From NCBI RefSeq assembly GCF_041248615.1, contig NZ_CP158426.1: DNA of 64,000 nt. The stretch is one strand, 5' to 3'. The position numbers and the translations under genes were made by a program. Within the stretch, counting starts at the first letter, position 1, and every line of letters starts with the position of its first letter. Below the pieces are notes generated by a model that did not search any database, had not been told where the DNA came from, and worked only from the letters and a program-made list of their open reading frames with translations. Source of the DNA: Escherichia coli. GTDB taxonomy: Bacteria > Pseudomonadota > Gammaproteobacteria > Enterobacterales > Enterobacteriaceae. Below, piece by piece: positions 1 through 3,870 of the stretch.

Positions 1-555
1 GCGCAGGTCGTTGTTCGCCACAATCGTTGCCCGATGGTAGTGATACATCTCATTGGCCGTGCGCGGGAGCTTCGCCTCGAGGATCTTGTTGTAGGCATAA
101 AAAACCAACCCGCTACAGTCGAAGCCTTGATCGGGCCGCGTGCCGCCCCAGACGTAAGGCTTGCCAAGCTGCTGCTCCAGGCGGTGAATCGCCACTTCGG
201 TGATGTTGTGTAGATGGTCGCTGCTTAAGAAATGGTTGTTCTCCGCCAGCGCCTGCCAGCGTCTGTCACTTGCCTTGAGCGGCGCAGGAAACCATTCTGG
301 ATGCTGTTTTATCTGTTCGCGGTTGTGCTGGCGCAGCGCCTTTCTGCTTTCGGCATTGCCTTCCACAATATAGCTGGCCTGTTTTTTCAGATGGGTTTGG
401 TACTGTTTTAATAAACGCGCACGGTTTTGCATCCGCTGGCGGGCGGCGTAGCTGAAAGAGATATGTGATGTGGTGGCGCTGGCGAGTAAAGGGAGCAAAA
501 CGCATAACGAAAACACGCCTGGATGCAGAAATCTGCCGTGAAAGAACGAAGACAT
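1..555 (-). CDS. yafL: NlpC/P60 (C40) family peptidase lipoprotein, 3' end truncated by window edge
   Basis: Manual translation of minus strand from ATG at 553-555 stays open to position 1: MSSFFHGRFLHPGVFSLCVLLPLLASATTSH... with GKPYVWGG and GFDCSGLV motifs typical of NlpC/P60. Not in ORF track because the stop lies outside the window. Confidence 0.75.
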   Translation of the reverse strand, partial: MSSFFHGRFLHPGVFSLCVLLPLLASATTSHISFSYAARQRMQNRARLLKQYQTHLKKQASYIVEGNAESRKALRQHNREQIKQHPEWFPAPLKASDRRWQALAENNHFLSSDHLHNITEVAIHRLEQQLGKPYVWGGTRPDQGFDCSGLVFYAYNKILEAKLPRTANEMYHYHRATIVANNDLR

Positions 556-855
556 GAAGGACATAAACCGGCTGAATGAAGGTGAGAATTTTAAAAGACC
601 AGAGGAGTAAACGGGATTATTAATTGCTTATTTGCATATTACTATTGAGGTTTCATAATCTTAGGAAATAAATGATACATGCGCTTTTCGGACTAATGAA
701 AACTGCCCCTGTGCTAAATTTGTAAACCCTGCGCCGACAGGCTTGCGTAAAACTCTTTTGGTGATAATGTGAGCCTTCCAAATCCAGACTATTCCGATTT
801 GGGATCCATTTTGCCGTCCTGGCGTGTGTAACCGTTTTATCAAGGAATAAGCAGT

Positions 856-1596
856 ATGCGTAAAATCGCATTAATTCTTGCGATGTTGTTGATCCCGTGC
901 GTTTCGTTTGCCGGTTTGCTGGGCAGCAGTAGCTCGACCACGCCAGTGAGCAAAGAGTATAAGCAGCAGTTGATGGGATCCCCTGTCTACATCCAGATCT
1001 TCAAGGAAGAACGTACGCTCGATCTCTACGTCAAAATGGGCGAGCAATATCAACTGCTCGACAGCTATAAAATCTGTAAATATTCCGGCGGCTTGGGGCC
1101 AAAACAGCGTCAGGGCGATTTCAAAAGCCCGGAAGGGTTTTATAGCGTCCAGCGTAATCAGTTAAAACCAGACAGCCGTTACTACAAAGCGATTAATATT
1201 GGATTCCCCAATGCCTATGACCGTGCGCATGGTTATGAAGGGAAATACCTGATGATCCACGGTGATTGTGTTTCCATCGGCTGCTACGCAATGACCAATC
1301 AGGGTATTGATGAGATCTTCCAGTTCGTTACTGGTGCGCTGGTGTTTGGTCAGCCGAGCGTGCAAGTGAGTATTTACCCGTTCCGCATGACCGACGCCAA
1401 TATGAAGCGCCATAAATATTCCAACTTTAAGGACTTCTGGGAGCAGCTGAAGCCAGGTTACGACTACTTTGAGCAAACCCGTAAGCCACCGACCGTTTCT
1501 GTGGTCAATGGTCGTTACGTGGTCAGCAAGCCGTTAAGCCACGAAGTTGTGCAACCACAGCTGGCATCAAACTACACGCTCCCCGAGGCAAAATAA
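856..1596 (+). CDS. ldtF: L,D-transpeptidase (YkuD domain), periplasmic
   Basis: 246-aa ORF with signal peptide ([19 protein letters not shown]) and YkuD-like core ([12 protein letters not shown]); matches E. coli YafK/LdtF and its position next to yafJ. Confidence 0.9.
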
Positions 1597-2394: not shown

Positions 2395-3168
<774 letters not shown>

Positions 3169-3272
3169 ATCAGCATACTTGTCCTTAGCCTTCTGCAGTG
3201 ACAGCTGGTAGTACAGCGTGCTTCTGGCCAGCCCTGCAGCCTTTAACAGGTCAGACTGGCAGTGTCCGCACC

Positions 3273-3803
3273 TCAGGCTCCGGATGACTTTCGTTTTTTC
3301 TCCAGCTCCTGGCGCTTTTTTTCCAGGAGATGCTCCTGCATGGCTTTCAGATATGCATTTTCTGCGCGAAGATAACGCAGCTCATTCTTCATCTCTTCCG
3401 GCGTCATGTTTGCCTCGTTTTCATGGGTATCATCAGAACGGGTCATGCTTTTCTCCTTCCTGCGCCTGATAAAGGCCTCATTACCAGATTTGCGGTAGCC
3501 TTTTATCCAGTTTTTAACCGTGTTGTGGCTGGGAATGTTAAACCGGGCAGCTACCCGGGGTAGAGACTCAGAATGCCCGAGAGCATAAAGAACCACGCAA
3601 AGTTTATCTTCAGGAGAATAGCTACGCTTGTGTCTGCAATCCAGTGCCCGAGGACCGTGAAGAAGAAAAAGATTAATCCAGTGTGAGAGGCTGGTGTGAG
3701 AAAGTTGAAAGAGTTTTGCCGTAGAAATGATGCCTGCATGACCAGCCAGGTAATGATTTACAGCGGCAAGTTTTACTTCAAATGAATGTTTCATAAACTG
3801 CAC
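3273..3803 (-). CDS. IS3-family transposase OrfA (HTH DNA-binding, leucine-zipper C-terminus)
   Basis: 176-aa ORF MKHSFEVKLAAVNHYL... with basic/coiled-coil tail, typical IS3 OrfA. Confidence 0.85.
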   Translation of the reverse strand: MQFMKHSFEVKLAAVNHYLAGHAGIISTAKLFQLSHTSLSHWINLFLLHGPRALDCRHKRSYSPEDKLCVVLYALGHSESLPRVAARFNIPSHNTVKNWIKGYRKSGNEAFIRRRKEKSMTRSDDTHENEANMTPEEMKNELRYLRAENAYLKAMQEHLLEKKRQELEKKRKSSGA

Positions 3804-3845
3804 CTTCAGATGTCAGATTATGTCCAACATTTGGGGTGCAGTTCA

Positions 3846-3870
3846 GTAAACGTCTTATCCGGCCTACGCC
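3846..3870. repeat. REP/PU palindromic unit, right half
   Basis: gtaaacgtcttatccggcctacgcc immediately after the IS right end. Confidence 0.65.

What the first reader, a model, noticed from the sequence alone, without database searches (positions are those of the whole stretch)
556..855. No dinJ-yafQ toxin-antitoxin module between yafL and ldtF (yafK)
In K-12, as I recall the map, dinJ-yafQ lies between yafK and yafL. Here the two genes are divergent and separated by only 300 bp with no ORF. This is either an ancestral empty site or a clean deletion.
Basis: partly seen in the sequence, partly recalled or inferred. Interest (0 to 1): 0.3.

Follow-up and report, generated by a model that had tools for sequence, protein, structure and literature searches.

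The report
Ancestral yafL–dpaA spacer lacking dinJ-yafQ
This E. coli strain has no dinJ-yafQ toxin-antitoxin pair between yafL and dpaA (yafK/ldtF) because it keeps the original, never-occupied form of that spacer, a common variant already described in the literature.

Summary
yafL (minus strand, start codon at 555) and dpaA/ldtF/yafK (plus strand, start at 856) are divergent and 300 bp apart. Nothing in the spacer, or anywhere in the 64-kb window, encodes DinJ or YafQ. K-12 does have the order dpaA–yafQ–dinJ–yafL.

The difference from K-12 is a replacement, not a clean insertion or deletion. Window 484–715 (232 bp, including the first 24 codons of yafL) stands where K-12 has 838 unrelated bases: a different yafL 5' end, 209 bp of spacer, dinJ, yafQ and 17 bp.

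- **Frequency:** of 5,426 complete E. coli genomes, 2,084 carry the window-type segment and 3,342 the K-12 type.
- **Outgroups:** E. albertii, two other divergent Escherichia genomes and ten Citrobacter/Phytobacter species have yafL and dpaA adjacent with no toxin-antitoxin genes. The window's 232 bp aligns collinearly with E. albertii.
- **Source of the cassette:** the nearest non-Escherichia relatives of dinJ-yafQ sit on plasmids and other mobile-looking DNA.

The empty site is therefore the ancestral state and K-12 carries a gain. A clean deletion is refuted. The uneven distribution of dinJ-yafQ among E. coli phylogroups is already published. This is ordinary and of low interest.

The parts
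1..555 (-). 5' part of yafL (C40/NlpC-P60 peptidase), first 185 codons; the gene runs off the left end of the window
   Evidence: Translation. Pfam NLPC_P60, E 2.8e-13. RefSeq annotation of the identical sequence.
484..555 (-). yafL codons 1-24 (most of the signal peptide), MSSFFHGRFLHPGVFSLCVLLPLL; K-12 has MSLPSIPSFVLSGLLLICLPFSSF. This stretch is specific to the haplotype.
   Evidence: Mismatch map and translations. The window version resembles the E. albertii and Citrobacter N-termini.
484..715 (.). 232-bp segment present in the allele without dinJ-yafQ. K-12 has 838 unrelated bp in its place (record 245946-246783).
   Evidence: Breakpoints. No significant similarity to the K-12 segment. 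Found in 2,084 of 5,426 E. coli genomes.
556..855 (.). yafL-dpaA divergent spacer, 300 bp, with no dinJ or yafQ
   Evidence: No Rfam family. No CTG-N10-CAG LexA-type box inside it.
613..671 (.). Block almost invariant among the E. coli, divergent Escherichia and E. albertii spacers that lack the cassette; absent from K-12
   Evidence: Alignment of seven spacers.
631..659 (+). Promoter-like site TTTGCA-17-CATAAT inside the conserved block, pointing towards dpaA (a consensus match only)
716..855 (+). dpaA-proximal 140 bp shared with K-12 and conserved as far as Citrobacter and Phytobacter. It probably holds dpaA's own promoter and 5' UTR (my reading: TTGCGT 743-748, 16-nt spacer, TGaTAATGT 762-770).
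   Evidence: Identical to K-12 across the whole stretch. Conserved blocks. The promoter assignment is inference from the sequence.
856..1596 (+). dpaA (=yafK/ldtF), 246 aa
   Evidence: YkuD domain; RefSeq annotation.

Best explanation
Window 556-855 is the original, unoccupied form of the divergent yafL-dpaA spacer. It holds only the control regions of the two flanking cell-wall genes and has never carried dinJ-yafQ. The K-12 arrangement is derived. In an ancestor of part of E. coli, a roughly 600-bp dinJ-yafQ cassette with its own promoter/operator, of a kind that circulates on enterobacterial plasmids, became fixed here. About 220 bp of further DNA of unknown source came with it. Together they replaced the yafL-proximal 232 bp, including yafL's first 24 codons, and left the conserved dpaA-proximal 140 bp intact. 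The two forms now coexist in E. coli at about 38% (no cassette) and 62% (cassette). Shown here: the coordinates and breakpoints, the frequencies, the outgroup states, and the extent of homology to plasmid copies. Inferred: the direction of change (a gain), the mobile-element origin, and the promoter assignments.
For: 1) K-12 gene order and exact breakpoints: the window and K-12 match up to position 483 and again from 716. Between those points, 232 bp and 838 bp are unrelated.
2) Among 5,426 complete E. coli genomes, 2,084 have the window-type segment and 3,342 the K-12-type segment. The two counts sum exactly to the total, so very few genomes can carry both or neither.
3) E. albertii, Escherichia sp. 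E1V33 and strain SCPM-O-B-8794 have yafL and dpaA 311-312 bp apart with no DinJ/YafQ hit. Nine Citrobacter genomes and Phytobacter massiliensis have them 262-381 bp apart, also with no cassette. Of 80 species loci, only Escherichia sp. MOD1-EC7003 has the cassette there.
4) The window's spacer and yafL 5' end align collinearly with those of E. albertii, including a nearly invariant 59-bp block. The window-type YafL N-terminus resembles the Citrobacter one.
5) No remnant of dinJ or yafQ is detectable in the window.
6) The closest non-Escherichia YafQ proteins (75-82% identity) lie on small contigs beside a RepL replication gene, in regions with plasmid or mobile-element genes, and on about 40-55-kb plasmids of Citrobacter, Klebsiella, Enterobacter and Yersinia. 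Their DNA similarity to K-12 covers only positions about 221-804 of the 838-bp segment, that is the promoter plus dinJ plus yafQ.
7) Literature: PMC6896753 treats yafQ-dinJ as acquired, present in all of the E/B1/A lineage and in phylogroup F only within the other lineage. PMC7167474 describes E. coli toxin-antitoxin systems as accessory insertions into otherwise undisturbed loci.
Against: - The first roughly 220 bp of the K-12-specific segment (yafL signal-peptide codons plus about 150 bp upstream) match neither the window nor the plasmid copies, so no donor has been identified.
- No target-site duplication or terminal repeats mark the junctions, so the insertion mechanism is unknown.
- The cassette-bearing allele also occurs in a separate species-level Escherichia lineage (MOD1-EC7003), with its yafL 5' end 11% diverged from K-12. 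Both alleles are therefore old, and recombination between lineages blurs a simple single-gain story.
- I did not place presence/absence on a genome phylogeny, and I did not determine the phylogroup of the window's strain.
Confidence: 0.82

Rival explanations
1. Secondary loss by deletion: the lineage once had the K-12 arrangement, and a deletion removed dinJ-yafQ.
For: Toxin-antitoxin loci are known to decay and be lost. One genome (H110) retains only the last 59 bp of the K-12-type segment, so deletions of this cassette do happen.
Against: A deletion cannot create the 232 bp (484-715) that K-12 lacks, and those bases are orthologous to the E. albertii spacer. No dinJ or yafQ remnants were found. 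Outgroups lack the cassette.
Confidence: 0.03
2. Loss by allelic replacement: an ancestor of this strain carried dinJ-yafQ and later regained the ancestral-type spacer by homologous recombination with a strain lacking the cassette.
For: Recombination clearly moves alleles at this locus. The yafL-dpaA region of O145:H28 RM13514 is closest to a divergent Escherichia lineage (dpaA 98.9% to E1V33). The BS-01-type yafL 5' end is a mosaic of both types. The cassette is reported in phylogroup F only within the F/G/B2 lineage (PMC6896753).
Against: The window's flanks (yafL body 94.8%, dpaA 98.4% to K-12) sit within ordinary E. coli divergence and show no sign of a foreign tract. The lineages without the cassette are numerous and diverse (identity bands from 80% to 100%), as expected if the state is old and vertically inherited.
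Confidence: 0.12
3. Assembly or annotation artefact: the genes are present but were missed or collapsed.
For: None.
Against: The same sequence is found in 2,084 independently completed genomes. The window is 100% identical to the finished NRZ14408 chromosome.
Confidence: 0.01

Closest known systems
E. coli K-12 dinJ-yafQ locus (b0226-b0225) between yafL and dpaA/yafK
   Same: Same chromosomal site and same flanking genes. The dpaA-proximal 140 bp and the yafL body are shared.
   Different: The window has no dinJ, no yafQ and no CTG-N10-CAG box. Its yafL upstream region and YafL signal peptide are different. 232 bp stand in place of 838 bp.
Unoccupied toxin-antitoxin insertion sites in E. coli strains lacking mazEF or yafNO (relA-mazG and dinB-yafP in UTI89), as reviewed in PMC7167474
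   Same: Flanking genes are intact and adjacent where K-12 carries a toxin-antitoxin pair, and the pair is read as an accessory insertion.
   Different: In the cases described there, the flanking genes form undisturbed operons. Here the cassette allele also swapped the first 24 codons and the upstream region of a flanking gene.
Published yafQ-dinJ distribution among E. coli lineages (PMC6896753; Fiedoruk et al. 2015, cited in PMC7167474 but not held in the library)
   Same: The same presence/absence polymorphism, described as an acquisition in the E/B1/A lineage and in phylogroup F.
   Different: As far as I could read those papers, they do not give the breakpoints, the replaced 232 bp or the alternative YafL N-terminus. 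Fiedoruk 2015 and Ramisetty & Santhosh 2016 could not be opened, so this cannot be claimed as new.
Plasmid-borne RelB/DinJ-YafQ modules of Enterobacterales
   Same: They are related to the K-12 cassette (about 68-77% DNA identity, 75-82% YafQ protein identity) over the promoter, dinJ and yafQ.
   Different: They are relevant only as the likely kind of source for the K-12 allele. Nothing like them is in the window.

Membership tests
DinJ-YafQ type II toxin-antitoxin module | Antitoxin gene with a RelB/DinJ domain (PF04221) | tested here: not met
   tblastn with K-12 DinJ gives no hit in the window at E<=1e-5 and only noise at E<=10. The only ORFs in the spacer have no Pfam match.
DinJ-YafQ type II toxin-antitoxin module | Toxin gene of the YafQ family (PF15738, RelE/ParE fold) directly downstream of the antitoxin | tested here: not met
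   tblastn with K-12 YafQ gives no hit; the best E is 1.8.
DinJ-YafQ type II toxin-antitoxin module | Operator/promoter with the LexA-type CTG-N10-CAG palindrome seen upstream of K-12 dinJ | tested here: not met
   None of the 30 matches in the window falls in 556-855. The K-12 copy (CTGAATAAATATACAG) is visible.
Ancestral unoccupied yafL-dpaA spacer | The spacer is collinear and homologous along its whole length with the spacer of outgroup species | tested here: met
   The alignment with E. albertii, Escherichia sp. E1V33 and SCPM-O-B-8794 is continuous and has a nearly invariant 59-bp block. The dpaA-proximal part is conserved as far as Citrobacter.
Ancestral unoccupied yafL-dpaA spacer | Outgroups with the same gene adjacency lack the cassette | tested here: met
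   13 non-E. coli loci have yafL next to dpaA and no DinJ/YafQ hit. Only MOD1-EC7003 has the cassette.
Ancestral unoccupied yafL-dpaA spacer | Phylogenetic reconstruction places absence at the root of E. coli | not tested
   No genome tree was built. I rely on outgroup parsimony and on PMC6896753.
Clean deletion scar of dinJ-yafQ | The empty allele equals the K-12 flanks joined together, with no extra DNA | tested here: not met
   The 232 bp at 484-715 have no K-12 counterpart.

The most novel reading that the evidence does not exclude
Acquiring dinJ-yafQ rewired the neighbouring cell-wall genes. The cassette allele gave YafL a different signal peptide and upstream region, and it removed an Escherichia-wide conserved 59-bp block (window 613-671, with a promoter-like site facing dpaA). 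In its place the dinJ promoter sits upstream of dpaA. If so, expression or export of YafL and DpaA would differ systematically between the roughly 38% of E. coli without the cassette and K-12-like strains, and K-12 would be a poor model for their regulation.
Probability: 0.25. Interest if true: 0.3.

Novelty: already known. Interest (0 to 1): 0.1.

Why it matters
It matters little. It confirms that a much-studied K-12 toxin-antitoxin pair is accessory, is missing from over a third of complete E. coli genomes, and was gained rather than lost here. One practical point follows. The two alleles also differ in YafL's signal peptide and upstream region and in what lies upstream of dpaA. K-12 results on these two peptidoglycan genes, and on polar effects of dinJ-yafQ deletions, may therefore not transfer to strains without the cassette.

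Tried and rejected
- The Rfam scan of 400-1000 at E<=1 found nothing.
- There is no LexA-type box in the spacer.
- The 72-aa and 60-aa minus-strand ORFs in the spacer have no Pfam match and are not annotated, so I dismissed them.
- The repeat search at the junctions, in both the window and K-12, found no target-site duplication or terminal repeats, so there is no transposon-like signature.
- I looked for a source of the first roughly 220 bp of the K-12-specific segment in plasmids and in contigs carrying YafQ relatives. Homology stops at the cassette.
- I asked whether the 5.2% divergence of the yafL body from K-12 marks a foreign tract. It does not: yafL is about 5% diverged between any two of the window, K-12 and ATCC 25922.
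- I tried to check phylogroup reference genomes directly. UMN026 is not in the collection. One call asked for one base over the 50-kb limit. The IAI39 coordinates I guessed were wrong because of a rearrangement. I abandoned this, so phylogroup statements rest on PMC6896753 and on my recalled phylogroup assignments for well-known named strains in the hit lists.
- Fiedoruk 2015 and Ramisetty & Santhosh 2016 are not held in the library.
- Whether the K-12 and window signal-peptide codons are homologous is inconclusive. Identity is 39 of 81 ungapped at equal length, but signal peptides share composition. The BS-01 mosaic allele suggests they are related.

Full report
**What is at the coordinates.** The window begins inside yafL, on the minus strand, with its start codon at 555. 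A second in-frame ATG lies at 564. dpaA (also called yafK or ldtF, 246 aa) starts at 856 on the plus strand. Pfam finds NLPC_P60 in the first product and YkuD in the second. The 300 bp between them hold only two mechanical minus-strand ORFs of 72 and 60 aa. Neither has a family match, and neither is annotated in RefSeq for the identical sequence. The window is 100% identical over its first 12 kb to the chromosome of E. coli NRZ14408, record LT599825. tblastn with K-12 DinJ and YafQ finds nothing anywhere in the 64 kb, even at E<=10. Rfam finds nothing in 400-1000, and there is no CTG-N10-CAG box in the spacer.

**Comparison with K-12.** MG1655 has dpaA (b0224), yafQ (b0225), dinJ (b0226) and yafL (b0227), with 155-bp and 209-bp spacers (the same numbers appear in PMC5120126, Table 1). 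Base-by-base comparison gives sharp breakpoints. The window and K-12 match through window 483, inside yafL at the codons for ASATTSH, and again from window 716. Position 716 lies 17 bp past the yafQ stop codon in K-12 and 140 bp upstream of dpaA. Between these points the window has 232 bp and K-12 has 838 bp, with no significant similarity between them. The alleles therefore differ by a replacement. As a result, YafL begins MSSFFHGRFLHPGVFSLCVLLPLL here and MSLPSIPSFVLSGLLLICLPFSSF in K-12. A clean deletion cannot produce this.

**How common it is.** Among 5,426 complete E. coli genomes, 2,084 carry the window-type 232 bp. 3,342 carry the K-12-type segment, 3,321 of them over at least 80% of its length. 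The counts sum exactly to the total, so the two states are essentially alternative. The allele without the cassette is itself diverse:
- 188 genomes are at 99% identity or above to the window.
- 635 are at 95-99%.
- 1,231 are at 90-95%; the sampled genomes in this band carry an 11-bp insertion and include ATCC 25922.
- 30 are at 80-90%.

The sampled cassette-bearing genomes include K-12, ATCC 8739, O157:H7, O55:H7, O104:H4 and O121. This agrees with PMC6896753, which reports yafQ-dinJ in all of the E/B1/A lineage and, within the other major lineage, only in phylogroup F, and treats it as acquired.

**Which state is ancestral.** I scanned one genome per species with DpaA and obtained 80 loci.
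- E. albertii, Escherichia sp. E1V33 and a divergent genome labelled E. coli SCPM-O-B-8794 have yafL and dpaA 311-312 bp apart with no cassette.
- Nine Citrobacter genomes and Phytobacter massiliensis have them 262-381 bp apart, also with no cassette.
- Only Escherichia sp. MOD1-EC7003 has dinJ-yafQ there.

The window's spacer and yafL 5' end align collinearly with those of E. albertii and the other Escherichia loci without the cassette. The alignment includes a 59-bp block (613-671) that is almost invariant while its surroundings are about 76-88% identical. The window-type YafL N-terminus (MSFMSSFFHGRFLHPGVFSLCV from the upstream ATG) resembles the Citrobacter one (MSFVSAPRRFLPGLLSLCV). The simplest reading is that the window keeps the ancestral spacer and K-12 carries a gain.

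**Where the cassette comes from.** The nearest YafQ proteins outside Escherichia are 75-82% identical. They occur patchily in Salmonella, Klebsiella, Yersinia, Xenorhabdus and others. Their contexts are a roughly 3.8-kb contig with a RepL replication gene, a region with SSB and Fic genes, and a contig with type IV pilus (PilS) genes. In the plasmid collection, related modules sit on roughly 40-55-kb plasmids of Citrobacter, Klebsiella, Enterobacter, E. coli and Yersinia. In every case the DNA similarity to K-12 covers only positions about 221-804 of the 838-bp segment. That span is about 60 bp of promoter/operator plus dinJ plus yafQ. The remaining roughly 220 bp, comprising the K-12 yafL 5' end and about 150 bp upstream of it, have no identified source. 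No repeats or duplications mark the junctions. The origin on mobile DNA is therefore an inference, and the insertion mechanism is unknown.

**Age and exchange.**
- yafL evolves quickly. The window, K-12 and ATCC 25922 are each about 5% apart in the yafL body and about 2% apart in dpaA, so the flanks of the window look native.
- MOD1-EC7003 shares the K-12-type allele with 11% divergence in the yafL 5' end, yet dinJ is 98.1% and yafQ 99.3% identical to K-12.
- The locus in O145:H28 is closest to Escherichia sp. E1V33.
- The BS-01-type allele mixes motifs from both yafL 5' ends.

Both alleles are therefore old, and recombination moves them between lineages. For that reason I keep loss by allelic replacement as a minor rival (about 0.12) to simple vertical retention.

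**What the spacer does.** This part is inference. The dpaA-proximal 140 bp is shared with K-12 and has conserved blocks as far as Citrobacter and Phytobacter. I read a promoter with an extended -10 element there: TTGCGT at 743-748, a 16-nt spacer, and TGaTAATGT at 762-770. If this is right, dpaA keeps its own promoter in both alleles, although PMC5120126 cites RegulonDB as listing none. The conserved block at 613-671 contains a promoter-like site, TTTGCA-17-CATAAT, facing dpaA, and K-12 lacks this block. The yafL-side control region and signal peptide are allele-specific. None of this was tested experimentally.

**Verdict.** It is an ordinary, already published accessory-gene polymorphism. The only modest additions here are the exact breakpoints, the replaced 232 bp with the alternative YafL N-terminus, and the outgroup evidence for the direction of change.

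Noticed in passing
window 2411-3846: An IS1397 (IS3-family) copy, 1,436 bp including a duplicated GTAA, is inserted in a REP-like palindrome (CGGATGCGGCGTAA|ACGTCTTATCCGGCCT) between yafJ and gmhA. It is absent from Ecol_316 and other close relatives, and IS1397-like sequence matches many places in the NRZ14408 chromosome. From memory, insertion into REP/BIME elements is the known habit of IS1397.
   Followed up: partly
L086 1-5708 (NRZ14408, just left of the window); L082, L083, L084: The DNA beyond yafL varies between strains. NRZ14408 has an intact flhA and lateral-flagella (Flag-2) genes and no rayT. Ecol_316 has rayT plus a truncated flhA. ATCC 25922 has no rayT. O145:H28 RM13514 has a hicAB toxin-antitoxin pair where rayT sits in K-12.
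   Followed up: no
window 613-671: A 59-bp block (GGGATTATTAATTGCTTATTTGCATATTAC...CATAATCTTAGGAAATAA) is almost invariant from E. coli to E. albertii, while the neighbouring spacer is about 76-88% identical. It is missing from K-12-type genomes. It is probably a regulatory element of dpaA or yafL.
   Followed up: partly
L085 about 1500-1600 (E. coli BS-01; about 30 genomes in the 80-90% band): A third yafL 5' allele (MSLLGRFLHPVRRDYCCSLCVLLPLF, 12 extra bases). It shares ATGTCCTTGC and CGGGATTACTGTTG with the K-12 type and the rest with the window type. It is either a recombinant or an intermediate form.
   Followed up: partly
L084 (O145:H28 RM13514): Its yafL-dpaA locus lacks the cassette although other phylogroup E strains (O157:H7, O55:H7) have it. 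It is closest to Escherichia sp. E1V33 (dpaA 98.9%), which suggests import from a divergent Escherichia lineage.
   Followed up: partly
L005 2594-3501 (Escherichia sp. MOD1-EC7003): dinJ is 98.1% and yafQ 99.3% identical to K-12, much higher than the flanking yafL (89%), dpaA (96.4%) and yafJ (95%). This could reflect a more recent exchange of the cassette or strong constraint on it.
   Followed up: no
window about 10700-39000: A type VI secretion region (Rhs core protein, VgrG, Hcp and a run of large ORFs) follows yafV and a degraded ISAs1 copy.
   Followed up: no
window 679-696: The sequence CATGCGCTTTTCGGACT is conserved in all six full-length Escherichia spacers without the cassette; only BS-01, which has a deletion there, differs. 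It could encode a 5-6-codon mini-ORF (MRFSD...). Its significance is unknown.
   Followed up: no
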